Of a stretch of DNA of 50,445 nt, positions 7,581 to 44,926 are shown in pieces. The first letter of the stretch is position 1, and each line of letters begins with the position of its first letter. Origin of the DNA: a virus (lineage: Duplodnaviria; Caudoviricetes). Both the position numbers and the translations under genes were made by a program. The stretch lies in the IMG/VR virus record IMGVR_UViG_3300037258_000061, positions 1 through 50,445 of that record; one strand, 5' to 3'. The notes beneath the pieces are model-generated. The model saw only the letters and a list, made by a program, of their open reading frames with translations, was not told the origin of the DNA and searched no databases.

Positions 7581-7808
7581 TTAATTTCCAGTCTTTACAG
7601 TCGTGGTTGCTTGATCTGTATTGATTGTTGTAGATGGTTGAGATGGTGTCAACTGACGAATACCCATTAAAGCTGAACCAATGTAACTAAAAGCCTGAGC
7701 TGCTTCGTTATTCTTCTGATAAAAAAAGAAGGCTGCTATGAGTAAGAGTAAAAATCCGTAAAAATTCTGATTTAGAAAATTTGTGGCGGCATTTACAGCA
7801 GTACTCAT
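7581..7808 (-). CDS. Putative holin (two hydrophobic segments)
   Basis: 75 aa; FYGFLLLLIAAFFFY and AFSYIGSALMGI; GGAGG RBS. Confidence 0.55.
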   Translation of the reverse strand: MSTAVNAATNFLNQNFYGFLLLLIAAFFFYQKNNEAAQAFSYIGSALMGIRQLTPSQPSTTINTDQATTTVKTGN

Positions 7809-16715: not shown

Positions 16716-16925
16716 ATGAATCCATTCTTAGCAAGCGGTCTTTTACTCATAATTAGATTCCTGATGTTCCTAGCAGCGAATCAAGTTATGCCAACTCGTG
16801 CAGATCAATACAACAAACTTGATGAGTTACTTGACGCTGCACAGCGTTATTCAACTCAACTTTCAAATCACACACTCAACGCTCACCAGATGGATGACAG
16901 CAACAGCGGAAAGCAGGTTATGTAA
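16716..16925 (+). CDS. Small protein with hydrophobic N-terminus
   Basis: 69 aa; AGGAG RBS. Confidence 0.65.
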   Translation: MNPFLASGLLLIIRFLMFLAANQVMPTRADQYNKLDELLDAAQRYSTQLSNHTLNAHQMDDSNSGKQVM

Positions 16926-30903: not shown

Positions 30904-31689
30904 ATGCCGTCAAATCCACCATTTAATGATGATTTTGAAGTTCAACCTGCAGATGCAGATTTGTGGGCCAAAGTTGAAGAAGATAAAAAGCAAGAAAAGA
31001 TTGACGAAGGTGGTGTGCAGCCAGAAGTTGGTCCTATAGCTACTTTCAAGCAAGTAGAAAATGCAATGGTGAATGTCGAAGCGGGCGAAGATAACATCGT
31101 CGGTTTAATTGAGTTAGGTGTTGGTCTGGAGGCAGTTGGTGACAATATCATTGTGCTTATTGATAACTATCGCTCTGGTTATGAATGCACTGCTTGCAAA
31201 GGGACGGGTAAATTACGGAGGTTTGTTCGGTGTGTCTGCGATCCGGATATTCCAGATTCTGATCTGGACTTCCCTCGCGGTACTCGCAATCGCTTTAAGG
31301 CTGTCTGTGAGGCTTGCTCTGGCGAATATCTCACCGTGCGGATAGATGACGTAGTTACTTGCCATAAATGCAATGGTAGAGGAGCAACTCTAGTTATCCC
31401 CGAAAATGCTCAATCTCTGCCAACTACAGGAATTATTCTAAGTATGGGTCCAGAGGTTACTCGCAAGGGAATTGCTATAAACAAGCGAGTTATCTGCACT
31501 CCGCACGCAGGTGTATTTCTTCCGATGAAGGGAAATATTCCTGTGAAAGTTTATCGCCAGCATGAACCTCTCTGCAATATGTATAACATTAAAAAAGATG
31601 GAACTGCAGATAAGGAAAAACCTGGCGAATTAGTTACAAATCAATTCGTTGAACATGATACACCGCTTGGCACACAACACAATGCTTAG
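30904..31689 (+). CDS. GroES/cpn10-like co-chaperonin with inserted DnaJ-type zinc finger
   Basis: [10 protein letters not shown] and [24 protein letters not shown] match the GroES pattern LKPLGDRVLV / [31 protein letters not shown]...CHKCNGRG lies between them. Confidence 0.75.
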   Translation: [261 protein letters not shown]

Positions 31690-32299
31690 TAACGAAGTTC
31701 TCTACTTAGAAAAGGGTGGGAAGCCTATGTCACTTCAACAAACAGATGTGGGAAATATTCAACAAAGAGGTACTTCAGTACTTGCGAATCCTCAACTCGT
31801 CTCATTCGACATTGCATATAAACAACTAATCGAACGCTGGGAAGATCCACATCTCACAGGTAAAATTACTCATGATGCAGGTGGTGCAACTAAATATGGA
31901 ATTTCACAGAATGCTTATCCATCTTTAGATATTTCTACTATTACTGCCTCAACTGCAAAAGAGATAACTTTTAAAGATTATTGGATGTATTCTAAGTGGA
32001 ATATATCAAAATTACAAGCTGCCTATCAACCTCTTGCAAATAAGTTATTTCAGTTTGGATTTAATGTGGGAGTTGGTACAGTAATTCAAATTGCAAATAT
32101 GTGTGTATTCTCGGCTGAGATAGGCGATCAAATACCAAAGTTAGGTGATCCCTTAGATATTACAAGCCGTAGCCCAGAAACATTAAGTGATTTGAGACTA
32201 ATGATGGTTGCAGCTCAACTTTCAAGATATGTAGTTGATTATCATGGTTTAAGTCGCGTTCCGCACTCCCTAATGGACCGCGCTCTTTGTATAGAGTAA
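31682..32299 (+). CDS. Endolysin, glycoside hydrolase family 108-like
   Basis: WE...HDAGGATKYGIS...DYW...LFQFGFNVGVG; start at 31682 or 31727. Confidence 0.8.
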   Translation: MLSNEVLYLEKGGKPMSLQQTDVGNIQQRGTSVLANPQLVSFDIAYKQLIERWEDPHLTGKITHDAGGATKYGISQNAYPSLDISTITASTAKEITFKDYWMYSKWNISKLQAAYQPLANKLFQFGFNVGVGTVIQIANMCVFSAEIGDQIPKLGDPLDITSRSPETLSDLRLMMVAAQLSRYVVDYHGLSRVPHSLMDRALCIE

Positions 32300-32336
32300 T
32301 TGCGAATTACACAGGGTTGATTACTCTATACGAAGA

Positions 32337-32373
32337 AATGCCCCTGATATTGCCTATCAGGGGCATTCTTTTG
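32337..32373. terminator. Terminator between the convergent arms (likely bidirectional)
   Basis: AATGCCCCTGATA-TTGCC-TATCAGGGGCATT perfect 13-bp stem with T-rich tails on both strands; a second hairpin lies at 32289-32331. Confidence 0.85.
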
Positions 32374-32396
32374 CTTTAAATTAACTACAAATTAAA

Positions 32397-32885
32397 TTAC
32401 GAACCCGCAGGCGTGGTTGTAACCGGCGGAGTTGTATCAGCAGGCGAAATCTGTTCAAGATTACCAAGACCACCAGTAATCTGTGATGCAGATGCCGTAA
32501 CTGCAGCAGTTGCAGAGTTAATATTACTTGTATTGGTATTGATCTGAGCAACCTGTGCTTCGATCGCTGCGATAGCTGCGCTTTCATCCGGAGTTGTAGC
32601 AACCGGCAGATTTGCAAGTGCAGTTGTAATAGCTGCAGTTGCTGCAGTAATCTCAGACGTTTCAGCCTGAACTGCAGTTCCATTAGCTGTAACTGCATTT
32701 GCGAGGTCAGTTGTTGCCTGTGCGAGTGTGGTAGCGGCTGTTCCCAAGGTATGAATCTCCTCTGCCAGTATAAGCGTGGCGGCTATTATTAGCAGTCCAA
32801 ACTTTTCTTCCGAATCAAACTTACCTCTTTGAAGATCGTTGGAAAGTTGTTCTGCTAAATTCTTAAGTTTATCTGCAAACATCAA
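32397..32885 (-). CDS. Ala/Thr-rich coiled-coil protein
   Basis: GGAGGA RBS; short hydrophobic stretch followed by long A/T-rich heptads. Confidence 0.65.
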   Translation of the reverse strand: MMFADKLKNLAEQLSNDLQRGKFDSEEKFGLLIIAATLILAEEIHTLGTAATTLAQATTDLANAVTANGTAVQAETSEITAATAAITTALANLPVATTPDESAAIAAIEAQVAQINTNTSNINSATAAVTASASQITGGLGNLEQISPADTTPPVTTTPAGS

Positions 32886-32894
32886 ATCCTCCTA

Positions 32895-34493
32895 TTAAAC
32901 TGTCCACCAATTTGTGCCGTCATACTCTATGGTCATTTTTGAATATTGTGTTATCAAAGTTGGATTAGCTGCTCCATCTATAGTTCCGACTATAGTTAGA
33001 ACAGTAGTTCCATCTGACTTTTTAAAAGTATGTCTCTGGCCAGCATAAGCCTGAGTTGAAAGTGTTACAGAGAATGTGCCAGTGGTTACAATCATTCCAT
33101 CGGTGGGCAGAAGAGTATAGTTAGCACTCTTAGCAGCTACCTGCGAGCTAGGAAATACTCCGGCTCCTCTCATAGAAGTTATAGCAGCATACGAGTCTGC
33201 GAGTTTGGCAATATTAGCGGGGTCTAAGGCGGCGATATATAATTCTGCAATTCCGATGTTAGTCATTGCAAGTGCAGCAGTAATAGCTGCGTAACTCTCG
33301 CCTTGCTCATTTACTACATAGAACCCGTTGATAGTCATTCGCTCAAGAGTTAGAGCCGCAGTCGCAGATAGCAACGGAGTACCGGTATTATTACCAGCCA
33401 TAGTTCTGGAAATTCGACAGTTATTCAGTGTGATCGCAGAGATAGTGGCAGCAAAATTACAGAGCAAGAATGAGCCAGCCCCTGTGGGACTTAGCCAGGT
33501 ACAGTTAGAAAACTCGATGTCTCCTAGACCACCTTGTAGTTGTACGTAATTTCCGGCAGTACTAAATACATTATTACTTGCAATCAGTTTACGTACTAGA
33601 TCGCCAGTGTTAGGCACAGTAGTACTACCAAGAATGAACACACTAGTGGTTGTGCTACCAGCGTTGTCTGCAATTACTACTTTGCCAACTTGTCCTTCGA
33701 CGTTGCCATATACTCTAAATGCGTTCAAACAATTGAATATTGTGTTATTGCTAACTACTGCATCGTCTATCAAACCGCCGTAGCCCTCAAACGCATTAAG
33801 TGCAATAGCATCATCAGAACCATTGTTATCAATATAATTACCCTTGATTCGTATAGCAGATGCAGGACCATCAATGTGAACACCATCTTGATTGAAAGTA
33901 TCTGTCACATTTGGATTTATGATCGTATTGTTCTGAACTACAGCATCAGAACAGTTATTCAATCTAATCTCATAGGCTGCTGAATCGTAGAGATACATAT
34001 CCTCAATACGAACGCCGTTAAGATTTGCTAGATTGATATTGCAATACCAATATGTACCAGTTACTCCACGGGGATCACCTGAAGTTGAATTTCCAGTTGT
34101 TCCATCTCCACGATTGCCATTTATCATGAAGTTTCGCAGGCATACATTCTCACCGCTGGCTGGAGGAGTGGTATCTTGATCGAACGGAAGAATTTTTCCG
34201 TTATTAATCGGATCGGCATTAGAACCTGACGCTATCCAGATACCAGAATCCCACCCTATTCCTTCGATAGTAGTATGGCCAGCTACTGCAACTACTAAAC
34301 CAGTTACTAATGAAGGACCGTCTAGAATTAACTTAAGCGGATTTGTAGCAGAAGCACCAGCTAGAAATTTATTAAGCGCAACAGTGTTATCGGTGGCCGT
34401 TCCGCCACCAATCTTGGCTCCAGTCGCTAAGTCACAATCCAGCACAACACCAGCTATAGAAGATGCTTTTACTTCATTGAATGGCTGATTCAT
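32895..34493 (-). CDS. Tailspike/depolymerase, pectate-lyase-like right-handed beta-helix
   Basis: TDNTVALN, DGVHIDG, DDAIAL and Asn-ladder repeats; C-terminal YDGTNW domain. Confidence 0.85.
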   Translation of the reverse strand: MNQPFNEVKASSIAGVVLDCDLATGAKIGGGTATDNTVALNKFLAGASATNPLKLILDGPSLVTGLVVAVAGHTTIEGIGWDSGIWIASGSNADPINNGKILPFDQDTTPPASGENVCLRNFMINGNRGDGTTGNSTSGDPRGVTGTYWYCNINLANLNGVRIEDMYLYDSAAYEIRLNNCSDAVVQNNTIINPNVTDTFNQDGVHIDGPASAIRIKGNYIDNNGSDDAIALNAFEGYGGLIDDAVVSNNTIFNCLNAFRVYGNVEGQVGKVVIADNAGSTTTSVFILGSTTVPNTGDLVRKLIASNNVFSTAGNYVQLQGGLGDIEFSNCTWLSPTGAGSFLLCNFAATISAITLNNCRISRTMAGNNTGTPLLSATAALTLERMTINGFYVVNEQGESYAAITAALAMTNIGIAELYIAALDPANIAKLADSYAAITSMRGAGVFPSSQVAAKSANYTLLPTDGMIVTTGTFSVTLSTQAYAGQRHTFKKSDGTTVLTIVGTIDGAANPTLITQYSKMTIEYDGTNWWTV

Positions 34494-36259
34494 CGAGCCC
34501 CCGCGGCTGTGTAATTGGTTTCATCCGTTTGAGATAACAAACGGTTATAGATACGTGTATAGGCTATAACACCAGCAATCAAAGGTTGAGTGCCATCTGT
34601 GCGAGCGCCAAGACTTACACTCTTAGTGTTGACAAGGCTTCCAGTAAGTGTATCTTCAACAGGACTATTGTTGGTACACAATATTCCATCGATATAGAAA
34701 GCCACTCCGGCTGCTGTCTTACTTCCATCATAAGCCATAGTAACTCTATGAGTAGTTGCTGTGGTCAATACTGTAGTAGTTCCAACTTCTATGGCATTAG
34801 ACGGGTAGTCATTTACTAGAAAAGCATGAAGGTGAAATGCAGTTCCACCTGTAGCATCGATGGTAAATTCCCAGCCAATAAAATTATTATTTGGATCAAG
34901 CGTACTTGCTATAGTACGTTCGGATGTAGCGGCACCAGTGATATTAACATAAGCTGATACACTAAATGGAGTTGCGCCGTTGAAATTGGTAGCGGTCTGA
35001 TTCACGCCTGTAGTGTAGGCAGTGGCACTAAATAACGGAGTAAGTCCGGGTAAAGAAGAAGTAGACTGCCAAGTCAATGTACCAGTCTGCAACGTTTCTA
35101 TATTACTAGTACCACATCCGTCAGCAAAAGTAGTTCCTGTACCATCAGTCATTGGCCAGCATTCAACCATTCCTTGATTGATAGTACCTACAGTTAGAGT
35201 AGGACTAGTTGAATGCGAATTAGTTCCGTCATTACCAGTCACACTAAATGTAGTACTTGCAGGAGTCTGGCTGAATGGAAAACTTATTGTAAGAGTATTA
35301 CTGCCAGCCCCAGTAATAGTCGTGGGACTAAAAACTCCTGTCATTCCAGAAGCTAATCCGCTATCAGTATACGAAGCTGTTCCACTATAACCACCGGATA
35401 TAGATTGATTTATAGTGAAAGTAGGAGATTGAGTCCCACTCATAGTGGGCTCGTAAATCTGAGTCGAGGGACTAGAAGATACACTGAAAGCAGCAGCAAT
35501 AGCTGAAGTAGCAGTAAATGTACAAATATAAGTACCAGCTGAAGGTACTGTAATACTTGTATCGTTAGCATCTACTGATGTAGCAGTCCAGACCGCAAAA
35601 CTAGAGCTAGTGTAGCAGGTTACCTGTGGATAGAGAGAATTTAGATTATGCTGGAAAGTAAAAGAACCTGCACCAGAATAAATGTTTTCGAGTGTGACAG
35701 AAGTTCCACCGCTTCCACCACCACTGTTATTCCAAGTAGTGCCATTCCAAGTTCTACTCACACCGCTTATCAGATTGAAATAAGTTCCACCGATAGGTGG
35801 ATTTACAATCTCAACATCTGCATAAGCTCGCGTACCAAAAGCTATCGGAATACGAATAGCTTTAATCAGCCCATTGATATATGTGCTAAGACTCTGGCTT
35901 GAACCACTTATTGTTGTTGGAGTTATAGTTTGGGCGGGTGCTGTAGCTGCACTGGTAATTGTAATTGCCCACTGAGTATTTACAGGAGTAACAGAAGCAT
36001 TAGGGCAGAGCGTAGTTGAAAATGCTCCACTACTGTTTAAACTGGCAGTAACTGTAGTTTGAGCAGGAGTCATCAAAGTTCCACTGCAAAAATAACTTTG
36101 ACCCCCATTTCCAACTAAGTGAAATGTTATACTTCCGTTTGCCCAAGCAATGTTATCTGGATCAGTTACAGTTCCAGTAACAGTTGTTGATGCTGCATTA
36201 GCTGCAACTGCGAAGCCCAATATCAAAGGCAGCAAGCAAAATTTCATGAATTTAGACAT
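34490..36259 (-). CDS. Tail-fibre-like protein with signal peptide and C-terminal LamG/concanavalin domain
   Basis: MSKFMKFCLLPLILGFAVAANA/A signal; FSVSAYV, YDGS, FYIDG and RIYNRLLS LamG motifs; GAGGAG RBS. Confidence 0.8.
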   Translation of the reverse strand: MSKFMKFCLLPLILGFAVAANAASTTVTGTVTDPDNIAWANGSITFHLVGNGGQSYFCSGTLMTPAQTTVTASLNSSGAFSTTLCPNASVTPVNTQWAITITSAATAPAQTITPTTISGSSQSLSTYINGLIKAIRIPIAFGTRAYADVEIVNPPIGGTYFNLISGVSRTWNGTTWNNSGGGSGGTSVTLENIYSGAGSFTFQHNLNSLYPQVTCYTSSSFAVWTATSVDANDTSITVPSAGTYICTFTATSAIAAAFSVSSSPSTQIYEPTMSGTQSPTFTINQSISGGYSGTASYTDSGLASGMTGVFSPTTITGAGSNTLTISFPFSQTPASTTFSVTGNDGTNSHSTSPTLTVGTINQGMVECWPMTDGTGTTFADGCGTSNIETLQTGTLTWQSTSSLPGLTPLFSATAYTTGVNQTATNFNGATPFSVSAYVNITGAATSERTIASTLDPNNNFIGWEFTIDATGGTAFHLHAFLVNDYPSNAIEVGTTTVLTTATTHRVTMAYDGSKTAAGVAFYIDGILCTNNSPVEDTLTGSLVNTKSVSLGARTDGTQPLIAGVIAYTRIYNRLLSQTDETNYTAAGAR

Positions 36260-36276
36260 CGCAGTTCTCCTCGAAA

Positions 36277-37617
36277 TTAGTTATGAACCCCTATACATTC
36301 AATGCTTCCGAAAGAAGCATTACCATCAGAACCTTTTGATACAGTCAGGGTGTTTATTGTAGTAGCTGTTTTAGAACCCCAACCAGTTAAATCTATAGCA
36401 TTTGCTTCTGTACTTGAACCAGAATTAAAAGGTGTTCCTCCCATACAAGTAACTTGATAATTTGTATCAGCAAAACCTCCCCCAGACCACGTTAAAGTAT
36501 CAGAACAAGAAGCACCTGTGGGTGGACCAGAGGGTGTAGTACAACCCGGGGTTATTACAGCAGTTCTAATTACTTGGGTAGATGGAGCAGTTCCATTTGT
36601 ACAAGCTGTAACTCTACCATACGCATCAATAACTTGCGAAGAAGGAGAGGTGCAGGTTTTATTAGCACCTACTTGAGCAGCATCAATCTCAGTTGAATCC
36701 ATACCTGAATCAACAACATTGAAAAAACTAGTAAATGTAAAAATTGGTTCTTGAGGCAACGAAGTTCCAGGAGGAAAATGTATATTCTGATAATATATAC
36801 TAGTACCGACTGGAAGATAAGGTAACGCAGGAATCATTGCTGCAGTTAGCGAGCAAAAGTTAGGTGTAGCTGTAGAAGTAGTACAGTTAGCAAATACCTT
36901 ATTTGCTGCTGCAGTATCTAGAGTAAAAGTTAAATCTGGATTTGTAGGATCACCTCCAAGTGAAGTAGTAAATAGAGGAGGTAAATCACCCGCACTAAGA
37001 GATGCAACTCCAGATAGAAAATTGTGCCAAGCTTGATCTTGTCCCCAATATCTGGGACATCCAATACTTGCACACGAACCACCAACGTTAAGATAAAAAT
37101 AACCTGCGAAACTTGGGTTCGGAGCTACTTCGCTATCATTATAGGCACGATATAAAAACGTTGAAGTAATTTTTAATCCGAGAGTATTCGCAGTGAAATT
37201 TGAACTAAAGTCTATCGAAGATCCCGTAATCGTAAGTGACCTAATGACAGAACATGGTGCTGTTGCGTTAGGACAAATAGTAAGAGTATAAGTACTACCA
37301 GCAGGAGTAATAAAGTTGTTGGATTGAACCCCACTCTGCGAAAAAGCACCGGAGCCGTCCAGACTTCCCTGTGTAAGCCATTCTGACGTAGGAAAAGGAG
37401 CGCCATTCCAATGCACATTATTAGTAGGATTATTAGGATTAGGAACGAATTGTAATGTCCATGTGCCATTTGACCATACCTGTGATGATTGATCTACAGC
37501 AGTTGTAGTTACAGTAGTTGATTGTGCTCCTGCAGGGAGACACATTAACATGAATGCGATAGCTATAGCTATGAAAATCATCCAAGGACTAACTTCAGAG
37601 CGCATTAACTGCCGCAT
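36277..37617 (-). CDS. Tail-fibre-like protein with signal peptide, paralogue of 34490-36259
   Basis: Start ATG 37617 after GGGAGG; IFIAIAIAFMLMCLPAGA/Q signal; IDAYGRVT fibre motif; Cys pairs. Confidence 0.78.
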   Translation of the reverse strand: MRQLMRSEVSPWMIFIAIAIAFMLMCLPAGAQSTTVTTTAVDQSSQVWSNGTWTLQFVPNPNNPTNNVHWNGAPFPTSEWLTQGSLDGSGAFSQSGVQSNNFITPAGSTYTLTICPNATAPCSVIRSLTITGSSIDFSSNFTANTLGLKITSTFLYRAYNDSEVAPNPSFAGYFYLNVGGSCASIGCPRYWGQDQAWHNFLSGVASLSAGDLPPLFTTSLGGDPTNPDLTFTLDTAAANKVFANCTTSTATPNFCSLTAAMIPALPYLPVGTSIYYQNIHFPPGTSLPQEPIFTFTSFFNVVDSGMDSTEIDAAQVGANKTCTSPSSQVIDAYGRVTACTNGTAPSTQVIRTAVITPGCTTPSGPPTGASCSDTLTWSGGGFADTNYQVTCMGGTPFNSGSSTEANAIDLTGWGSKTATTINTLTVSKGSDGNASFGSIECIGVHN

Positions 37618-38011
37618 CGTATTCCTCCCAGTTAACTCCAAGTTCACTAGCCATGAATCTTTCAATACGAGTTGCCGTTTGATGCTGCTTAAAATAGGGA
37701 GCGTTTGGATCATCGCCAGGTTCGTCACACTCGCCGTGCATTCCTTTTGCACGTTCGTCTTCAAACTTGATATCAAAATCAGTTACAGCTTGCTCTTCAA
37801 CTCCATCAAGCCAGCAGAGGAGAGCTTCAACTTGTTCATGCACTGATACGAGCAAATTATACTTATAATTACCCATATCGCTAATGCGAATATGAAGAGT
37901 TGTGTAACGCCAAAACCAGTCGCCAACTGTGGGATAACGTTGGCAGCGATGTGCGATGAATCTAATACTAAGTGCAACTAAATCCTTGCGCGAACCTTTT
38001 CTAACTGGCAT
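37595..38011 (-). CDS. HExxE metal-binding protein (putative metallopeptidase/hydrolase)
   Basis: RYPTVGDW...VHEQVEALLC...EPGDDPNAPYFKQHQTATRIE; TAATG coupling with the ATP-grasp gene. Confidence 0.7.
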   Translation of the reverse strand: MPVRKGSRKDLVALSIRFIAHRCQRYPTVGDWFWRYTTLHIRISDMGNYKYNLLVSVHEQVEALLCWLDGVEEQAVTDFDIKFEDERAKGMHGECDEPGDDPNAPYFKQHQTATRIERFMASELGVNWEEYDAAVNAL

Positions 38012-39318
38012 TAGATCCATCCCATCTCTTTGAGTTTGAAAAATCTCTTCATAATACTTTTTTGTAAATCTGTTCGGTGTTGCATGTCAGGAATCTCAAT
38101 CTTTTCAATGCGAGCATCTAATTGAGCGAATGCACCTTGAGGAGTTGCGCTAACTTCAATAGGACAACAAATCAATCCATTGACGCCAGCGCATACTAGT
38201 TCCGCACTCTTGCCCGAGCCCTGCATCATTACATCATAAAAATAGGTCTTCATTAACTCTTCTTCTGAGTTAATATCAATACCTTTAACTGGAATACCTT
38301 TAACTTTAGCTAACCTGATTTCTGTTGGGTAAGGTGGTATAGTGATTCTTGCCGATACGCCATACTCCGCTTTCCACTTTTGTTCAGGAATTCCACCAGT
38401 TGCCACCCGCTTGAGAAGTTCGCCAAAATCACCACCATACATATTAAACAAAGTAGCTGAAGCATCATAGCCGAAACGAGGAGTCCATTCCAGACCATAT
38501 AGTTTTTCCTCCGTTGCTATCGTATTTAGATCGATCATGCCACGATAACCGAGAGCAGAAAGTACCTCACGAGCTTTAGCTAGACCTTCTGTAAATACAC
38601 GCGAGCCAGGATTTAGAGTAAACACTAAATTACCTGAACATCCTGTATTTGGGCCTATTCCGTCATTCATAAACTTTTTTTCTTCTAGTGTGCAATTCAA
38701 GCAGTAGAAGTCATTTCCGTTAAACCATCCTTCTACGGAAACTTCAATACCGGGCTTAAATTCTTGAAGAATGAAGGGAGAACCTTTAGATAGAAGAAAT
38801 AGTTTATCAATATACTCCAGCATATCAGTATCAGAATAGCTAACATAAGTTGTCCCAGCATCCTGATCTTGCCCACCGTTTGGTTTGTAGACGTATCTTT
38901 TTTTGGTTTCCTTGATAAAAGATTTCGCAGTGGATACATCTGTGAACACCTCCCAGGCGGGCACATCTATACCAGCGTTCTCCATCATTTCTATGCCGAA
39001 GAGTCTATCTTCTTCGAGCATTTTGTGAGTTGAACCATCACCGATTGTAGGTGTTTGGTTGGAACTATGATCGGCTTGTCTCTCTCTTCCAGTAAGATCA
39101 AACACTGAGACATCATACTTAGAGTAATCGGGAAATCCGATGTTTTCATCACTCTTCCTGTTGTCATGAAACTTAACAAATGGAGTGGGAGCTATGCCTT
39201 GCATTACATCAGCATATTTGTTCATACTAAGGTAATAGTCTACAGAATGGCCCTGCATTCGCATAACCGCAGCAAACCAAGCACCATAGCCTGCATAACT
39301 TGACAAGGCAATCTTCAT
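38011..39318 (-). CDS. PurD/GARS-like ATP-grasp ligase
   Basis: YVYKP, ILQEFKPGIEVS, EEKKFMNDGIGPNTG, GMIDLN and LEWTPRFG align with PurD ATP-grasp motifs. Confidence 0.88.
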   Translation of the reverse strand: MKIALSSYAGYGAWFAAVMRMQGHSVDYYLSMNKYADVMQGIAPTPFVKFHDNRKSDENIGFPDYSKYDVSVFDLTGRERQADHSSNQTPTIGDGSTHKMLEEDRLFGIEMMENAGIDVPAWEVFTDVSTAKSFIKETKKRYVYKPNGGQDQDAGTTYVSYSDTDMLEYIDKLFLLSKGSPFILQEFKPGIEVSVEGWFNGNDFYCLNCTLEEKKFMNDGIGPNTGCSGNLVFTLNPGSRVFTEGLAKAREVLSALGYRGMIDLNTIATEEKLYGLEWTPRFGYDASATLFNMYGGDFGELLKRVATGGIPEQKWKAEYGVSARITIPPYPTEIRLAKVKGIPVKGIDINSEEELMKTYFYDVMMQGSGKSAELVCAGVNGLICCPIEVSATPQGAFAQLDARIEKIEIPDMQHRTDLQKSIMKRFFKLKEMGWI

Positions 39319-39356
39319 AGCTCCAACCCCATTTTAATTTTCACTTCGGGTTTTAA

Positions 39357-39503
39357 TTACTTCTTAGGTACGCAAACATCCATACCTTTAGGACCACTGT
39401 TAGGACTACCAGAACCCTTTGGTGTTGCACCGGGTCCGCGCTCAATCTTTTTCTGCATCGAGATTGACTCACTGCGTGACATATTTGCTGACTGTCCAGA
39501 CAT
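39357..39503 (-). CDS. 48-aa Gly/Ser/Pro/Lys-rich peptide (not in the ORF track)
   Basis: TAAGGAGGAAGT-ATG; MSGQSANMSRSESISMQKKIERGPGATPKGSGSPNSGPKGMDVCVPKK. Confidence 0.75.
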   Translation of the reverse strand: MSGQSANMSRSESISMQKKIERGPGATPKGSGSPNSGPKGMDVCVPKK

Positions 39504-39512
39504 ACTTCCTCC

Positions 39513-41336
39513 TTATTGAAAAGTCATTTTCTTCAAGCCACTCATCTTCAATCGCTTGAGTTTGTGAGATTGAGAAGCAGCCTCTTTCTCTTTCTTTGTT
39601 GGAACAAGCGCATGTTTTGCATAACGGCCTAGACCATATGGAAGACCAATTTCAAGAGCATCTCGTTCCGCAGCTTCAGGATGTATTTTCTTTCCTTCGA
39701 TTGCTCTGAATCCAAGTCCACCAAAGTCTTGTAGATATTTTGCTCCAGTTCCCAGCAATGGACCTGCCATCTGCTGAAGTAAAAACCCACGTTGTATACC
39801 TTGAATCAACTCAAATCCAACACCAAATGCACCAAGATGTGCATATGCATCTAGATAAACTCCAGCAAAATCTCTGGCTTTACCAGCAATTGATTCTGAC
39901 TTTTGTCCTGAGAGTTCTTCCCAGTCGTTATGTGCTTCAGCATGAATTGAACTCCACTGTCCACGTCCTACCATTTCAAGCATCTTCAAAGCTTCGCCAG
40001 CGGCTGGAAATAGAACGCCCATAATAGCAATTGACTTTGCTATCTGAGCTACATCTCCAGACTTAAATGCAATTGAAGCTTCATCTCGCATGAACTTAGC
40101 TTGAGATGAGATATATCCATGATACATAGTAAATGCGCGAGTCCAAGCATTCGACTGTGCCTTGTATGAGCGATTCATACTTGTATCTAAAAATATCTTC
40201 TTGTTGACTCCATTCCAGACTGCACGCTCTATTTGATCTGGAGTTAATTTTCCAGTTTCAGCTATCATTTGAAAGTCAGTTGGCTTCATACCATACTGCT
40301 CAAGTCTTGCTCTAGCTAACTTATTTGAAGGGTCGCGAGCAAGCTTATCAGCGTAATCAATAGCACTATGATAAGTAGCAGAACCTGTAAAAGCCATTTG
40401 CCAGTCGCGTACATAGTTGAAACCTGGAGTTGAAGTAACTTTTTGAATTACGTTTTGAAGAGTTCCTGGCAGATGTTTGACAATGGCCCCGTTTCTGCTA
40501 TCTTCAAACGCTCGCATAGCCCTGAGCGCACCTTCTGCTGTGATTCCACTTGCGATATGCTGTTGTTTAAGCTCTGCAAGAGATTTAAGATTTGTTGTTT
40601 CTCCCAATGCCTTAATAAGAGCTGACGTTTGAGTACTTTGAACTGTATTAAAAATAGTACCCAAGTGAGGAAGAGCAATAAGGGGACTAAAGCGAGAAGA
40701 GATAAAATTAGTAGCGGACTTTTCAATTTGGTCCGGTCTGCGATAGTCAGAACTAGTATTATAGTGCTGAACACCCAACTGATCCATAGCGCTATCAAGA
40801 GATATCTCAGATTTCTTTGCAAGCTCTTTAGCTTGTTTATATCTTGGATCGTTTTTCTCAATAACTTGCGAAGCGTTAGTTTTGAATCTACTCTCATGTC
40901 CATGAGTTCCAATTTTCTGATCTTCGTGCAAATACAGAGCAATGTTATCCATCATGTTCTGAGTTGCTATGTGACCATTATTTTGGTGAGATTGATGGGC
41001 AAGGAAAGTTAAAGCAGCATCATGAGAACCAAAGGTAGCTGTGCGAGCAGCAGTTCTTGCTTGACCCAGCAACTCTTGCGACTCAGGCATTTTTGTAATG
41101 ACTTTAGTTGCAAGATCATTTGTTGCTTTGGTATGCAAGCCTGCAAAGATTTGATCACTCTTTTGTCTGTAGCTAGTGAGTAATCCAGCTACATCTCTAC
41201 CTTCTTCAGTCTGGGATAGAGAATGACCTATAGAACGGATATAAGGTTCAGCTTTTTGAGTTGCTTTCGCAAGAAATTCCTTAGCCTGTGGGGCTAAGTC
41301 TTGCAGCAAGTCTCTAACTACGGGAGCACCTGCCAT
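39513..41336 (-). CDS. Putative internal virion/ejection protein
   Basis: 607 aa, helical with C-terminal hydrophobic segments; last of four large genes after the tail genes. Confidence 0.7.
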   Translation of the reverse strand: MAGAPVVRDLLQDLAPQAKEFLAKATQKAEPYIRSIGHSLSQTEEGRDVAGLLTSYRQKSDQIFAGLHTKATNDLATKVITKMPESQELLGQARTAARTATFGSHDAALTFLAHQSHQNNGHIATQNMMDNIALYLHEDQKIGTHGHESRFKTNASQVIEKNDPRYKQAKELAKKSEISLDSAMDQLGVQHYNTSSDYRRPDQIEKSATNFISSRFSPLIALPHLGTIFNTVQSTQTSALIKALGETTNLKSLAELKQQHIASGITAEGALRAMRAFEDSRNGAIVKHLPGTLQNVIQKVTSTPGFNYVRDWQMAFTGSATYHSAIDYADKLARDPSNKLARARLEQYGMKPTDFQMIAETGKLTPDQIERAVWNGVNKKIFLDTSMNRSYKAQSNAWTRAFTMYHGYISSQAKFMRDEASIAFKSGDVAQIAKSIAIMGVLFPAAGEALKMLEMVGRGQWSSIHAEAHNDWEELSGQKSESIAGKARDFAGVYLDAYAHLGAFGVGFELIQGIQRGFLLQQMAGPLLGTGAKYLQDFGGLGFRAIEGKKIHPEAAERDALEIGLPYGLGRYAKHALVPTKKEKEAASQSHKLKRLKMSGLKKMTFQ

Positions 41337-44300
41337 TATTTCCGCCCTTCGGAATCTTCAAGAATTTTCTTGATCTTAGCATGGGCTTTAAAGAAATCCT
41401 CATCTGTCTTTGAATTCTTTCTAAGACTCTGAAGTTTAGCCAATTGCTTGAGTCCCTCATCGTATTCATCTGCGAAATTCTTTTTGTAAGGCCCCATAGT
41501 GGTCTTATAGTTCTGTATTTCTGCGAGCGCTGCTTCTTTTTCGGCTTCACGCTGCCACCTAGTGCGGCCTACAAATGAAGTGCTAATTGTAGAACGGAAT
41601 ACGTTACCTTCAGTATCAAGTCTTCCAGACATTGCCAGCATATCTATATGGGCAGATAAACGCTTGGCTTCGTCTTTCCATTCAGCTGTGGTTCCGTTAG
41701 GGTCCGCATCGTGGAGAACTTTTTTAATTCTGGATACGATAGGCACTGGAATATCTTCACTATGATGCAATCCCCAAAGAAGCATATCATGGGGCTTCTC
41801 GAATTTAATTCGATTTCCCATTTGATCCCCGATTTCCTGGACAAAATCAGTATCGTCCATTCCGTCCAGAAACGATGCGAGAGATTTATTCTGCTTCTTA
41901 GCACCGGAGGTAAAGGGATTTGTAAAGTGCGACAGCGCAGATTGCTTAAACGATACGTAACTCTTAGGTAAGTCTTCATGGACTGCTCCCGTCAACTTAT
42001 GGATATTTGCTATATCAATAGTGTTTCCTGCAGGATGTTCATTGGCCAACCACTTAGGGTCAGCTCTGCGCAGTGCAATCTGACTATCGATCTGAGTCTT
42101 TATAGTTGTGGCTAAGTCTTTAATTTCACTATCTGATTTCTCAGGAAAGTACTGTCTCAACTTTCGCATTGAGTTATCATGCGAGCGAAGTCTAGCTTTA
42201 GTTTCAGGACCACCAAAACGTTGTGGTTCACTTGAAACTCTATAAAGAGCTTTGTCTGCTTTACTAGCAAACTTAAGATCAAAACTCTCGTCTTTGCGAT
42301 TGTATTTAACGTTGCCAGTATCGCTTAGTTCGTTAAAGACCTCATCCTCTTTAGATTTCGACGCCTTTGGAGTTTCTTTCCTTGGACTTCCCAACTCAGC
42401 ATTTTTGTCAGCCAGAACCTTTTCGTTTCGCCCAACTCGTTCTGTAGCTCCCTGAGTAGATTTGACTCCGTTTTCGACAGCAATTGAATCTTGCTCTTCT
42501 TTGACGACCGCATCGACAATCTTCGCGCCATATTTTTGCTCCAAGGTCTGAAATGTTTGTGCTAACTGAGGATTAACTTTTACATCTTCTGAAAGCTTTG
42601 TTGTAACTTCATGCTGTGCTACATCTGGAACATGAATTGGCATTTCAGTTGTTGCTTCTGCAGCCATTTTAGCCATGTTAATTCTAACACGACGGCGCTG
42701 CAACTGTGATAGTTGATTCAGAGGTTTGCCATAAAGCTGACGTGCCATAGCATTCTGCGAGATTTTCTCAGCAGTTACTGCAGCATGTTTAATAGGATCA
42801 GCTTGATGGGCAGCTTCCATTTGTGCTGCATAAATCTTATCTTGCTCTGGATGAGCTTTATGCTCATCTGTATGAACAATTGGATTACCTGCAGCATCCG
42901 TACCAACTATATCATGTTCAATCTCAAAAGCAGCTTGGTCAGCTACAGTTTCATGGAATACTTTACCCCCGACAGCGATATTATTTGCAGCGACTCTCTT
43001 CATAGCTGCGCGAGATATAGGCTTGACTAGTGTTCCAAGACCTTCACCTGCTGCACCTAAGCCCATAAATGTAAGCATAGCGCCTGCGCGATCACCTTGG
43101 GGAGTTTCAGAGAAAATATCTCCTATATATGCAGAAGCGGCTTCTTTAAGTCTGCGACCTGCAAATTGACCAGTTTTGCTAGTTGCTAATCTGCGAGTAA
43201 AGTTGGCCGCTTTACCAATTGAACCAGTTGATTCAACAGCTTTTCCTGCACCAAGCAAGGCTTCACCAGTAGCCCCGAGTGCTTCTAAAGGACCATTGAT
43301 GGCTTCATACAAGGGAAGTTGAACAATTGCCTCTCCAACAAAACTACCAGCTTTCTCTGTGTAGTTTTTAGTTGGATGAGTATCTAGCCAAAATGTCTGA
43401 CGATCTATAACATCCTGAGATAACTTGAGAGCTGCGTCAGCGACTCTGGCATCATTATCAGATCGTTCGGTTGCCCAGGTATGAAGAGCGCTACCCGGGA
43501 AGAAATTGGCAACCCCGAGTATCTTTCTATCGACTTTAATTCCCGCCATAAATATAGAATGGACAAGGTGTCCGTTAAGCTGAATTGCACTAGCTTCGGT
43601 GTGTGCCACTCCGGCTTGGAAGTCTGAGAATGCGTCTTTGTTTGTAGCCTCACTATACTCATAGAAGTCTGAGGTTTTAAACGAGCCCTTCTGAACTTGG
43701 CCGACCCAAAGATCCTTCGGGGGAGGTTCTATTTTGGAGTTTTTGTAAATTGGTACGACATACTTATCGTAGTAATTATCGAGAACGTGGGTTTTTTGGT
43801 CACTAGGCAAGGCAGCAAAACGAGGATTTTTAATGATACGTTCGGCTTTTGCATAGGTAGCGGCCTGCCGATCTAACGGATGCGTGAAGTTAAAAGGATT
43901 CTTATTCGCAGGATTTTCGACTGAAGCAATTCTGCTCTTGATTAACTGTTGGCGATAATCCCGAGGAATGTTTTGCTCTTCACCAGTTTTCTCATCTTCT
44001 AAATTAGTTGGAGCAAAGTGATGCTCACCAGTTTTAGCTGCTGGTTTAGCTGCAGGTTGAGCTTGCTGTCTGGATGGACGTGGAGATACAACAGGTTTTT
44101 CAGCACCTGCATCCTTCGCGTATGAATGTCCTTTTTTCATCCAATCTACAGGAGTTGCTAACTTAGCTAATGCTGGATCAGTTCCTTCAGTTCCAGTTGA
44201 AGCTGTAGGTATAGTGGAATCTGACATAGTATCAAACGTTCCAGTAACTTGCTGTAAATTAACCGGCGGTAAAGGCGCGCGCGGAGTTGTATTGATAGTA

Positions 44301-44926
44301 CCAAAGAATTTTTGTTTTACTGCATCAAGTATTCCCGAGGGATTCGGATCGGTAGATTCAATAGTTGATAACTTAGCTTTTTCCCAATCCTTAGACCAAG
44401 GTTCATAGATAGCTTTATACTGATCCATCTCTTTCTGAGTAATATATCCTTTTGCAAATGCCTGTTTCTTAGAATGATAATACTGCATCAGATGAGATTG
44501 CTGTTCAAACGGCAACTGTAAAATGGTCTTTCCAGCTTTACGTTGCGCTGCAAGATACTTAGGATCAGTAACTACTAAAGGATTACCAGTGTCAGGAGGA
44601 ATAGCTTTGCGTTGCTCTGGAGTTAGATTATTCTGAACCAGATGAATAGATTCATGCAGTGCAACTTGTTCTGGATCTTTCAAAAACTCTGGTACGTCAG
44701 TTACAGAAATATGATTAGGACTTCCAGGTATAACTCCAGCAATAGGATCACGATCAGTAGGTTGAGGACCAATTCCTTGAGTTTTTCCAGTTTCGATAGA
44801 AAAAGAAGGATCAATAGCCGATATTAAGCGGCTCAGTGAGGCGGGTGTAGCTTTTTGCAAAGCTTGACGACCAATTGAATTTATATCTGTACTATTGGTC
44901 GTAGTCGTCGGGATCGTCGTCGCCAT
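41336..44926 (-). CDS. Large internal virion/ejection protein with zincin HExxH motif
   Basis: ORF 41336-45004, ATG 44926 likelier; ALHESIHLVQ near the N-terminus; Gly/Ala-rich central helices. Confidence 0.75.
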   Translation of the reverse strand: MATTIPTTTTNSTDINSIGRQALQKATPASLSRLISAIDPSFSIETGKTQGIGPQPTDRDPIAGVIPGSPNHISVTDVPEFLKDPEQVALHESIHLVQNNLTPEQRKAIPPDTGNPLVVTDPKYLAAQRKAGKTILQLPFEQQSHLMQYYHSKKQAFAKGYITQKEMDQYKAIYEPWSKDWEKAKLSTIESTDPNPSGILDAVKQKFFGTINTTPRAPLPPVNLQQVTGTFDTMSDSTIPTASTGTEGTDPALAKLATPVDWMKKGHSYAKDAGAEKPVVSPRPSRQQAQPAAKPAAKTGEHHFAPTNLEDEKTGEEQNIPRDYRQQLIKSRIASVENPANKNPFNFTHPLDRQAATYAKAERIIKNPRFAALPSDQKTHVLDNYYDKYVVPIYKNSKIEPPPKDLWVGQVQKGSFKTSDFYEYSEATNKDAFSDFQAGVAHTEASAIQLNGHLVHSIFMAGIKVDRKILGVANFFPGSALHTWATERSDNDARVADAALKLSQDVIDRQTFWLDTHPTKNYTEKAGSFVGEAIVQLPLYEAINGPLEALGATGEALLGAGKAVESTGSIGKAANFTRRLATSKTGQFAGRRLKEAASAYIGDIFSETPQGDRAGAMLTFMGLGAAGEGLGTLVKPISRAAMKRVAANNIAVGGKVFHETVADQAAFEIEHDIVGTDAAGNPIVHTDEHKAHPEQDKIYAAQMEAAHQADPIKHAAVTAEKISQNAMARQLYGKPLNQLSQLQRRRVRINMAKMAAEATTEMPIHVPDVAQHEVTTKLSEDVKVNPQLAQTFQTLEQKYGAKIVDAVVKEEQDSIAVENGVKSTQGATERVGRNEKVLADKNAELGSPRKETPKASKSKEDEVFNELSDTGNVKYNRKDESFDLKFASKADKALYRVSSEPQRFGGPETKARLRSHDNSMRKLRQYFPEKSDSEIKDLATTIKTQIDSQIALRRADPKWLANEHPAGNTIDIANIHKLTGAVHEDLPKSYVSFKQSALSHFTNPFTSGAKKQNKSLASFLDGMDDTDFVQEIGDQMGNRIKFEKPHDMLLWGLHHSEDIPVPIVSRIKKVLHDADPNGTTAEWKDEAKRLSAHIDMLAMSGRLDTEGNVFRSTISTSFVGRTRWQREAEKEAALAEIQNYKTTMGPYKKNFADEYDEGLKQLAKLQSLRKNSKTDEDFFKAHAKIKKILEDSEGRK

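What the first reader, a model, noticed from the sequence alone, without database searches (positions are those of the whole stretch)
34490..37617. Two paralogous tail-fibre-position proteins carry Sec signal peptides and paired cysteines
Seen: both genes lie in the late operon next to the tailspike. They begin with classical signal peptides (MSKFMKFCLLPLILGFAVAANA/A and MRQLMRSEVSPWMIFIAIAIAFMLMCLPAGA/Q; the second appears only when the start is moved to ATG 37617, which has a GGGAGG RBS). They share a mature N-terminal domain (STTVT...D...W.NG...SL..SGAFS...TP...ATAP...TI.GSS...RAY.D.E), then diverge into a LamG domain or a fibre/lectin-like tail with many closely spaced Cys (CPNATAPC, CASIGC, CTTSTATPNFC). 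Known: tailed-phage virions assemble in the cytoplasm, so structural proteins normally lack signal peptides. Inference: these are either receptor-binding proteins that fold oxidatively in the periplasm and join the virion at lysis, or secreted lectins acting as receptor blockers or adhesins. Either would be an unusual morphogenesis or host-modification system.
Basis: partly seen in the sequence, partly recalled or inferred. Interest (0 to 1): 0.85.

Follow-up and report, generated by a model that had tools for sequence, protein, structure and literature searches.

The report
Phage tail fibres with export signals
Two neighbouring tail-fibre-type genes of an uncultured phage begin with bacterial export signals, a feature shared by a very large family of phage fibre proteins, which suggests that these fibres mature outside the cytoplasm, unlike those of any studied tailed phage.

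Summary
Genes A (34490-36259, minus) and B (36277-37617, minus) share a ~165-residue N-terminal domain (30% identity, E 7e-14) placed directly behind leaders with a charged start, a hydrophobic core and small residues at -3/-1. Such leaders are present in 44 of 47 homologues of A, in 49 of 49 homologues of B, and in 145-146 of the best 150 of 2674 cluster representatives that match the domain. Mature parts hold an even number of cysteines in 135 of 145 (p 2e-29), and cysteines appear and vanish in pairs: the mark of disulfide-bonded, exported proteins. The domain is joined to swapped C-termini (LamG, beta-helix, GDSL esterase, K1-lyase_C, Gp53-like tail-fibre tip), lies where podophages keep their fibre genes, resembles the virion-docking N-termini of solved phage fibres, and B is predicted to trimerise. 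Four natural leaderless relatives start exactly at the predicted cleavage site. Best reading: Sec-exported, disulfide-bonded receptor-binding proteins. How they reach the virion is inferred, not shown. I found no precedent in seven full-text searches.

The parts
36277..37617 (-). Gene B, 446 aa: leader + shared N-domain + extended middle + Cys-rich C-terminal beta-sandwich
   Evidence: ORF and start. 49 homologues, all with leaders. AF2 model pLDDT 78.6, N-domain and C-terminal domain about 90. BFVD matches are tail-fibre-class proteins.
37525..37617 (-). B leader, residues 1-31 (MRQLMRSEVSPWMIFIAIAIAFMLMCLPAGA), predicted signal peptidase I cut before Q32
   Evidence: Hydrophobic core score 3.09, net positive start, A-G-A at -3..-1. 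Q32 is invariant in 27 of 27 aligned relatives.
37624..37629 (-). GGGAGG ribosome-binding site of B, 6 nt before ATG 37617
   Evidence: Read directly. Shine-Dalgarno motifs lie before 20 of 42 genes, against 4.1 expected at random positions.
37018..37524 (-). B shared N-domain (residues 32-200), transthyretin/carboxypeptidase-regulatory-like beta-sandwich with the Cys pair CPNATAPC
36280..37017 (-). B middle and C-terminal part (residues 201-446). Residues 268-320 are of low confidence. The last ~125 residues form a confident beta-sandwich with conserved cysteines.
34490..36259 (-). Gene A, 589 aa: leader + shared N-domain + Gly linker + Ig-like middle + LamG-like C-terminus. Its stop overlaps the start of the next gene (ATGA).
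36194..36259 (-). A leader, residues 1-22 (MSKFMKFCLLPLILGFAVAANA), predicted cut before A23
   Evidence: The leaderless orthologue P0174 aligns from its residue 2 to A residue 23.
36267..36272 (-). GAGGAG ribosome-binding site of A
35708..36193 (-). A shared N-domain (residues 23-184)
   Evidence: AF2 pLDDT 95.1, pTM 0.87. VIA Z 8.7 to the N-termini of the A-1(L) neck fibre and of a chain of the Ur-lambda tail tip complex. The profile built from it finds 2674 representatives.
34493..35062 (-). A C-terminal LamG-like region (about residues 400-589)
   Evidence: PF13385 in 7 of 9 A-family proteins tested, over the matching region, E 1.7e-10 to 5.7e-16. No hit for A itself.
32895..34493 (-). Neighbouring beta-helix protein, 532 aa, with no leader and no N-domain. 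It corresponds to the C-terminal two thirds of N-domain fusions found elsewhere.
   Evidence: PF13229 E 2.3e-7. 44% identity to residues 167-700 of P0201, E 2e-139.
37595..39318 (-). Upstream context kept in relatives: a 141-aa ORF and an ATP-grasp enzyme (38011-39318)
   Evidence: Pfam GARS_A / ATP-grasp_3. Same order in L003, L004 and L005.

Best explanation
A and B are receptor-binding proteins (tail fibres or adhesin-like fibres) of an uncultured podophage-like virus. They are made as Sec preproteins.

Proposed steps:
1. The leader takes the unfolded chain across the inner membrane.
2. Signal peptidase I cuts after A-N-A (A) or A-G-A (B), so that the first beta-strand of the shared N-domain becomes the new N-terminus. 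In B and most relatives this N-terminus is a glutamine that could cyclise.
3. The chain folds, forms disulfides and, for B at least, trimerises in the periplasm.
4. The shared N-domain is the constant docking module, and the swapped C-termini bind or cut host surface glycans.
5. The fibres meet the DNA-filled, tailed particles only when the inner membrane is opened at the end of infection, and dock then.

What is shown, by comparison only: the leader, the cleavage-site pattern, the disulfide signature, the modular fibre architecture and the fibre position in the operon.

What is inferred: actual export and cleavage, presence in the virion, and the timing of docking.
For: Leaders:
- 44 of 47 homologues of A have leaders; the 3 exceptions look truncated at the N-terminus. 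All 49 homologues of B have them.
- Of the best 150 of 2674 profile hits, 145 pass my score and one more (P0169) passes by eye. The residue at -1 is A, G, S or C in 142 of 145, and +1 is Q in 134 of 145.
- 38 of 39 N-domain ORFs in 26 IMG/VR and metagenome loci have a hydrophobic stretch just upstream.
- About 20 homologues of A have a different mature N-terminus yet also carry leaders.

The leader is a detachable module: four relatives start M-S/A-T-T-T-V with no leader. One of them, P0174, is a full-length orthologue of A (46% identity) and aligns from its residue 2 to A residue 23.

Disulfides:
- 135 of 145 mature parts have an even cysteine count, and none has zero (binomial p 2e-29).
- Three N-domain cysteine pairs co-occur: 17 with both against 1 single, 34 against 3, and 8 against 0.
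- 3 of 4 leaderless forms have no cysteine in the N-domain, against 11 of 145 leader-bearing forms (Fisher p 0.0025).

Fibre nature:
- The genes follow the large internal-protein-like genes at the end of the late operon.
- In L004, a single 1388-aa leader + N-domain protein ends the operon. In L005, three such genes stand in tandem. 11 of 26 loci have 2-3 in tandem.
- C-termini of relatives include Gp53-like_C (E 4.5e-10 and 9.8e-18), K1-lyase_C, GDSL esterase and pectate-lyase-like domains.
- P0025 keeps 93% identity to A over the N-domain and then switches to another C-terminus.
- The N-domain's best structural matches are residues 1-9x of virion-bound fibre chains: 8keg_a and 9e7m_Ta at Z 8.7, 7kjk_A3 at 7.8, 9d93_Ka at 7.7. 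BFVD matches are tail fibre or minor tail N-termini.
- Three copies of B 32-266 give a score of 0.71 against a best control of 0.01. The runs agree in at least 93% of contacts and partner pLDDT is at least 88. The mark was reached by 20 of 30 proteins solved as pairs and 1 of 23 solved as single chains; these counts hold only roughly, because I used my own alignment and three copies.
Against: - No tool here predicts signal peptides; my scoring is crude.
- There is no proteomic, expression or export evidence.
- A itself has 7 cysteines in its mature part, an odd number.
- A's build (Gly linker, Ig-like middle, LamG) looks more like a monomeric adhesin than a trimeric fibre.
- The structural matches are middling: Z 8.7 where the tool gives 7-8 as a typical best Z for models without a clear Foldseek match, and Foldseek on the PDB gave nothing at E<=1e-3. 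The fold is also common in secreted bacterial proteins.
- The window's own beta-helix protein (32895-34493) has no leader, so the fibre module of this phage would be split between two compartments.
- Leaderless orthologues show that export is not needed for the protein family as such.
- The ~35-kb phage group that shares the N-domain shares no other protein with the window at BLASTP E<=1e-4, so no conserved docking partner was found.
- No case of a tailed-phage fibre that docks after export is known to me.
Confidence: 0.55

Rival explanations
1. The proteins are exported as above but never become part of the virion. They act in the periplasm or, after lysis, as free proteins: soluble glycan-binding or glycan-cutting factors that clear capsule or EPS, or that keep progeny from sticking to debris, or receptor blockers that exclude other phages.
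For: The leader and the disulfide signature fit any exported protein. A's Ig-like plus LamG build is adhesin-like. The fold of the N-domain is common in secreted bacterial proteins and in the periplasmic N-terminal extension of SusC-type transporters (9hfj_A, Z 7.3). No docking partner shared between phage groups was found. Phage proteins with Q-rule signal peptides have been read as host-envelope modifiers in Porphyromonas phages (PMC10367356, passages read).
Against: L004 would then show no receptor-binding protein in the fibre position of its late operon (only 20.5 kb of a 34-kb contig was seen). A conserved N-module with swapped C-termini is the usual pattern of virion-anchored fibres. Tail-fibre tip and tailspike domains occur in relatives. 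The predicted trimer has a fibre-like intertwined neck. These proteins reach 1871 aa and come 2-3 per genome, a large share of a 35-50 kb genome for accessory factors. A Sec leader alone reaches only the periplasm of a diderm host, not the receptor side of the outer membrane.
Confidence: 0.27
2. The hydrophobic N-terminus is not a cleaved export signal. It stays on the protein, as a membrane tether or an assembly helix, and the fibres stay on the cytoplasmic side and assemble in the ordinary way.
For: No experimental evidence of cleavage. Leaderless orthologues exist, so a cytoplasmic route is possible for this family.
Against: The positive charge lies at the N-terminal side of the hydrophobic core, which by the positive-inside rule (established knowledge) sends the C-terminal part outwards. 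Small residues at -1 in 142 of 145 and a sharply kept junction are not needed for a tether. The cores are rich in Leu, Ile and Phe, not weakly hydrophobic like SAR domains. The even cysteine counts point to an oxidising compartment. Leaderless forms start exactly at the junction.
Confidence: 0.1
3. Annotation artefact: the true starts lie downstream and the leaders are not translated.
For: B's start overlaps the upstream ORF by 23 nt. The Atlas record starts at residue 5.
Against: There is no start codon at or near the domain start. The next Met in A is residue 63, inside the conserved fold. Good ribosome-binding sites lie before both ATGs. Leader features are kept across proteins whose leader sequences have diverged completely.
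Confidence: 0.02

Closest known systems
N-terminal docking domains of phage fibres (chain Ta of the Ur-lambda tail tip complex 9e7m; cyanophage A-1(L) neck fibre gp5, 8keg; phage XM1 neck, 7kjk; Bxb1 tail tip, 9d93)
   Same: A small transthyretin/carboxypeptidase-regulatory-like beta-sandwich at the very N-terminus of a fibre protein, followed by variable distal parts. VIA Z 7.7-8.7, 81-92 residues aligned, 12-26% identity.
   Different: To my knowledge none of those proteins carries a signal peptide (recalled, not tested here). No sequence relation was found: PDB profile search, best E 0.086. The Z values are only slightly above the tool's usual background.
Modular tailspikes and tail fibres of podophages (T7 gp17 position; K1-lyase-type and SGNH-type tailspikes)
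   Same: Last genes of the late operon after the large internal proteins. Conserved N-module with exchanged C-terminal enzymatic or binding domains. Several per genome. Predicted trimer.
   Different: They have Sec-type leaders and a disulfide signature. [quoted passage not shown]
Bacteroidetes Q-rule substrates (signal peptidase I products with N-terminal Gln cyclised to pyroglutamate)
   Same: Gln directly after the predicted cut in B and in 134 of 145 relatives, and also in about 18 of 20 A homologues whose mature N-terminus is unrelated. The rule and its stabilising role are described in PMC5837995 (abstract and section 16 read) and PMC10653852 (abstract read).
   Different: A has Ala at +1. 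The host is unknown. Shine-Dalgarno use in the window and the 55-62% GC of most related phages do not fit typical Bacteroidota. That Bacteroidota rarely use Shine-Dalgarno sites is recalled, not tested here.
Exported phage proteins with known roles (signal-peptide or SAR endolysins, spanins, T5 Llp, lambda Bor/Lom)
   Same: Phage-encoded proteins that use the host Sec pathway.
   Different: Those are lysis or lysogenic-conversion proteins, small, and not built like fibres. Here the window's endolysin (GH108, 31649-32299) has no leader.

Membership tests
Sec / signal peptidase I signal peptide | Positively charged n-region followed by a hydrophobic h-region of about 7-15 residues | tested here: met
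   A: net +2, core score 2.65. B: net +1, core score 3.09. Same in 44 of 47, 49 of 49 and 145 of 150 relatives. This is my own scoring, not SignalP.
Sec / signal peptidase I signal peptide | Small uncharged residues at -1 and -3 before the cut | tested here: met
   A has A-N-A and B has A-G-A. At -1, A, G, S or C in 142 of 145. At -3, A in 81 and L, V, S, T, C, I or G in 57 of 145.
Sec / signal peptidase I signal peptide | Actual translocation and cleavage | not testable with these tools
   Indirect only: leaderless relatives start at the junction, and the cysteine count is even in 135 of 145.
Lipoprotein (signal peptidase II) signal | Lipobox [LVI][ASTVI][GAS]C with Cys at +1 | tested here: not met
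   By eye there is no such motif in A or B (B has L-M-C, with Met at -1). Some distant A homologues (P0012, P0014, P0018) have lipobox-like G-C before the A-F-A-Q site.
Phage tail fibre / tailspike (receptor-binding protein) | Gene at the distal end of the structural operon | tested here: met
   Order: portal, capsid ... 1222-aa, 607-aa, ATP-grasp, B, A, beta-helix. Same order in L004 and L005.
Phage tail fibre / tailspike (receptor-binding protein) | Conserved N-terminal module with exchangeable C-terminal binding or enzymatic domains | tested here: met
   Lengths range from 153 to 1871 aa behind one N-domain. Of 60 scanned, 6 carry K1-lyase_C, GDSL, Gp53-like_C or pectate-lyase-like domains. 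P0025 switches C-terminus after 93% identity to A.
Phage tail fibre / tailspike (receptor-binding protein) | Homotrimer | tested here: inconclusive
   Prediction only, for B 32-266 in three copies: score 0.71 against best control 0.01; 20 of 30 solved pairs and 1 of 23 single chains reach the mark; contacts agree at 93% or more; pLDDT 88 or more. A was not tested.
Phage tail fibre / tailspike (receptor-binding protein) | Physical presence in the virion and a role in adsorption | not testable with these tools
   No cultured relative: no match in 50,697 GenBank phage records.
Laminin_G_3 / concanavalin-like lectin (PF13385) | Match to the Pfam model above its cut-off | tested here: inconclusive
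   A itself has no hit at E<=1. 7 of 9 A-family proteins tested hit at 41.7-59.5 bits (cut-off 27.6) over the region homologous to A 400-589.
Carboxypeptidase-regulatory-like / transthyretin-like domain | Seven-stranded beta-sandwich of that topology | tested here: inconclusive
   Fold-level matches at Z 7.8-7.9 to carboxypeptidase D transthyretin-like domains. No Pfam match.
Bacteroidetes Q-rule substrate | Gln at +1 and a host of the phylum Bacteroidota | tested here: inconclusive
   Gln at +1 in B and in 134 of 145 relatives, but not in A. The host is unknown. Shine-Dalgarno use and the GC of relatives argue against Bacteroidota.

The most novel reading that the evidence does not exclude
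A very large, wholly uncultured group of tailed phages builds its virions in two compartments. Heads and tails form in the cytoplasm. All receptor-binding fibres are sent through Sec, processed by signal peptidase I, disulfide-bonded (and perhaps capped with pyroglutamate) in the periplasm, and dock onto the particles only in the short interval after the inner membrane is opened and before or as the cell bursts. This would be a morphogenetic pathway not described for any tailed phage.
Probability: 0.4. Interest if true: 0.92.

Novelty: new variant of a known kind. Interest (0 to 1): 0.8.

Why it matters
Textbook morphogenesis of tailed phages takes place entirely in the cytoplasm. Fibres that must pass through Sec would add a compartment and a timing problem to assembly. 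It would tie phage infectivity to host SecYEG, signal peptidase and disulfide machinery, which are new points for host resistance. It would also explain how soil phages obtain disulfide-stabilised adhesins.

In practice, annotation pipelines that treat a signal peptide as a sign of a non-structural protein would misfile this family (2674 clusters at 50% identity). Recombinant production of such fibres or depolymerases would need periplasmic expression.

The leader-bearing and leaderless orthologue pairs (A and P0174) offer a ready natural experiment.

Tried and rejected
Searches and checks that led nowhere:
- Pfam and PHROGs on A and B: no family.
- Megablast of 32000-46000 against GenBank phages: no match.
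- tblastn of B, A and a GC-rich relative against the same collection: no match. The portal finds only one distant record.
- Prophage or host search in one genome per species, with patterns from B relatives and from the QFTTV group: no relative. The host therefore stays unknown.
- The ATP-grasp protein and the leaderless proteins P0174 and P0201 as queries in viral contigs: nothing. I could not see a genome of the leaderless lineage.
- The metagenome scan gave one locus only.
- Foldseek of the N-domain against the PDB: nothing at E<=1e-3.
- PDB sequence searches with three tail-region proteins and with the N-domain profile: nothing usable. I could not name an adaptor or nozzle to test as docking partner.
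- BLASTP of the window's beta-helix, 162-aa and 141-aa proteins against the proteins held at that time: no hit. The later hit to P0201 came from the representative search.
- The Atlas search gave only sub-threshold look-alikes (0.81; Acidobacteriota the commonest taxon), a lead only.
- PHROGs on ten proteins of the ~35-kb phage group: one hit, a transglycosylase-like protein just before an N-domain gene.

Readings rejected:
- A T9SS C-terminal sorting domain: no Pfam hit in A or B.
- A Tat signal: no twin-arginine motif in A or B, by eye.
- A SAR domain: the cores are strongly hydrophobic and followed by a cut site.

Literature: seven full-text searches and passages in seven papers gave no report of a tail fibre or tailspike with a functional signal peptide. 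Subscription journals and supplements were not searchable, and supplementary annotation tables (for example of PMC10367356) might hold such cases.


Full report
**What the window is.** It is a complete 50,445-bp IMG/VR virus record (CheckV 100%) at 41-47% GC with no tRNA. One strand carries a family A DNA polymerase, a DUF3987 protein and a GH108 endolysin. The other carries a late operon that wraps round the record ends: a 626-aa ORF, an SU10-type portal, an HK97-type capsid protein, several unassigned structural genes, a 1222-aa and a 607-aa protein, an ATP-grasp enzyme, a 141-aa ORF, then B, A, a beta-helix protein and a 162-aa ORF. B and A therefore lie where T7-like podophages keep their fibre gene (gene order recalled). 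Nothing similar is in 50,697 GenBank phage records; the portal finds one distant record at 21% identity.

B's start is supported by the conserved MRQL.RS start of homologues and by the source's own 446-aa gene call. Behind the leaders the two proteins share about 165 residues (30% identity, E 7e-14). Of 61 non-overlapping ORFs in the window, only A and B among proteins over 100 aa have a charged start, a hydrophobic core and an A-x-A site; the other flagged ORFs are small membrane proteins or doubtful ORFs.

**The leader is a family trait, kept by type and not by sequence.**
- Of 47 homologues of A, 44 have such a leader. The three without (P0020, P0021, P0024) start inside conserved regions and look truncated.
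- All 49 homologues of B have one, and the residue after the junction, Q32, is invariant in 27 of 27 aligned sequences.
- A profile built only from mature N-domains (7 sequences) finds 2674 representatives of 50%-identity clusters at E<=1e-3, 1786 at 1e-10 and 542 at 1e-30.
- In the best 150, the domain starts at residue 14-34 in 144. 145 pass my leader score and one more (P0169) has a leader by eye. At -1, the residue is A, G, S or C in 142 of 145. At -3, it is A in 81. At +1, it is Q in 134.
- In 26 loci from IMG/VR and one metagenome, 38 of 39 N-domain ORFs have a hydrophobic stretch just upstream.
- About 20 homologues of A that carry a different mature N-terminus also have leaders, about 18 of them with Q after the junction. 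The leader therefore goes with the class of protein, not with one domain.

**Natural controls.** Four of the 150 (P0136, P0174, P0176, P0201) have no leader and begin M-S/A-T-T-T-V. P0174 is a full-length orthologue of A (46% identity, E 4e-144), and its residue 2 aligns with A residue 23, exactly the predicted cut. The leader thus behaves as a detachable targeting module whose boundary nature has marked.

**Disulfide signature.**
- The mature parts of 135 of 145 leader-bearing representatives hold an even number of cysteines, and none has zero (p 2e-29).
- As a control, the other proteins of the window give 26 of 41 even, many of them with zero. The 1222-, 607-, 427- and 323-aa structural proteins have none.
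- Within the N-domain, three cysteine pairs appear or vanish together. Positions 58/85: 17 with both, 1 with one, 34 with neither. Positions 102/109: 34, 3, 15. A third pair: 8, 0, 44.
- Three of the four leaderless forms have no cysteine in the N-domain, against 11 of 145 with a leader (Fisher p 0.0025).
- Against this, A itself has 7 cysteines, so at least one is unpaired.

This pattern is what is expected of proteins that fold in an oxidising compartment (established knowledge).

**Why these are fibre-type receptor-binding proteins.**
- The N-domain folds with high confidence (pLDDT 95.1, pTM 0.87) into a transthyretin/carboxypeptidase-regulatory-like sandwich.
- Without Foldseek pre-filtering, its best matches are residues 1-9x of chains resolved on virions: the cyanophage A-1(L) neck fibre and a chain of the Ur-lambda tail tip complex (Z 8.7), the XM1 neck (7.8) and the Bxb1 tail tip (7.7). 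BFVD gives 20 matches at E<=1e-3, mostly N-termini of tail fibre or minor tail proteins. These scores are only a little above background, Foldseek on the PDB found nothing at E<=1e-3, and the fold is frequent in secreted bacterial proteins.
- Behind the N-domain, relatives carry very different C-termini, with total lengths from 153 to 1871 aa. Where Pfam recognises them, they are tail-fibre or tailspike domains: Gp53-like_C, K1-lyase_C, GDSL esterase, pectate-lyase-like (6 of 60 scanned).
- P0025 is 93% identical to A through the N-domain and then switches to another C-terminus.
- In L004, the only gene in the fibre position is one 1388-aa leader + N-domain protein. In the close relative L005, three such genes follow each other. 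11 of 26 loci have two or three. In L013, a transglycosylase-like protein directly precedes one.
- B as a whole matches tail-fibre-class models.
- Three copies of B 32-266 are predicted to form a trimer through residues ~116-235 of the mature protein. The score is 0.71 against a best control of 0.01, the runs agree in at least 93% of contacts, and pLDDT is at least 88. The mark was reached by 20 of 30 solved pairs and 1 of 23 single chains, and holds only roughly here.

**Mechanism, and how sure each step is.** I take export and processing as likely (about 0.8), a role as virion receptor-binding proteins as more likely than not (about 0.65), and docking after the inner membrane opens as the only simple way to join the two (about 0.4 overall). 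The endolysin has no leader, which suggests holin-dependent lysis, but I did not identify a holin or spanin. Possible gains from export are disulfide-stabilised fibres, a protected N-terminus, and keeping glycan-cutting domains away from cytoplasmic precursors; all three are conjecture.

The main rival is export without virion attachment (free depolymerase or lectin, or blocker). It is weakened by the modular anchor pattern, the sole-fibre case in L004 and the fact that Sec alone reaches only the periplasm. It is helped by A's adhesin-like build and by my failure to find a docking partner shared between phage groups.

**An oddity inside the window.** The beta-helix protein next to A (32895-34493) has no leader and no N-domain. 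Yet it is 44% identical to residues 167-700 of P0201, a leaderless N-domain fusion. It looks like the distal part of a fibre gene that lost its head when the A-type cassette came in. Whether and how it is used is open.

**Host.** Gln after the cut recalls the Bacteroidetes Q-rule (PMC5837995, abstract and section 16; PMC10653852, abstract). A Porphyromonas phage study noted unknown phage proteins that obey it (PMC10367356, passages). But 20 of 42 genes here have Shine-Dalgarno motifs against 4.1 expected at random positions. Most related phages have 55-62% GC, and the weak Atlas look-alikes are mostly from Acidobacteriota. I therefore leave the host open. If the host is not Bacteroidota, the Q preference is itself worth a look.

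**Novelty.** Seven full-text searches found no report of a tail fibre or tailspike with a working signal peptide. One preprint's figure legend states the usual view, that the P22 tailspike has none because it needs no export. I file the finding as a new variant of a known kind: phage receptor-binding proteins, here with Sec leaders. Its most novel reading, two-compartment virion assembly, is at about 0.4.

Noticed in passing
window 32895-34493 (-): Beta-helix 'tailspike' without leader or N-domain. It is 44% identical to the C-terminal 534 residues of a leaderless N-domain fusion (P0201), as if it were a decapitated fibre gene left by cassette exchange. Its start overlaps A's stop (ATGA).
   Followed up: partly
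window 38011-39318 (-); also L003 8075-9349, L004 8087-9439, L005 1722-3029: An ATP-grasp enzyme (GARS_A / ATP-grasp_3) is kept just upstream of the fibre genes in this phage group. In L004 a GNAT-like 156-aa ORF follows it. A role in modifying a structural protein is conceivable.
   Followed up: no
proteins P0004-P0034 and P0101-P0231; L008-L028: Gln directly after the predicted signal-peptide cut in 134 of 145 N-domain proteins, and in about 18 of 20 proteins with unrelated mature N-termini. Meanwhile the phages use Shine-Dalgarno sites and mostly have 55-62% GC. This may be a Q-rule outside Bacteroidota.
   Followed up: partly
window 30904-31689 (+); L004 14361-14960: A conserved 261-aa protein with Cys-x-x-Cys motifs and a C-terminal part that looks GroES-like by eye (not tested), lying between the DUF3987 gene and the GH108 endolysin.
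   Followed up: no
L006 2652-11566 (IMG/VR contig of 48.6 kb): In this relative the order is large ORF, portal, capsid protein, and then directly a leader + N-domain gene. Here the N-domain protein follows the capsid gene rather than the internal-protein genes. This recalls the neck-fibre matches of the fold search.
   Followed up: no
L008-L031 (about 20 IMG/VR contigs of 33-38 kb): A GC-rich phage group shares only the N-domain proteins with the window at BLASTP E<=1e-4. It gave a PHROG hit for 1 of 10 proteins tested. It seems an almost wholly unannotated lineage.
   Followed up: partly
window 7581-7808 (-) and 16716-16925 (+): Small ORFs (75 and 69 aa) with one strongly hydrophobic segment each. 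They are possible holin candidates, but neither lies beside the endolysin.
   Followed up: no
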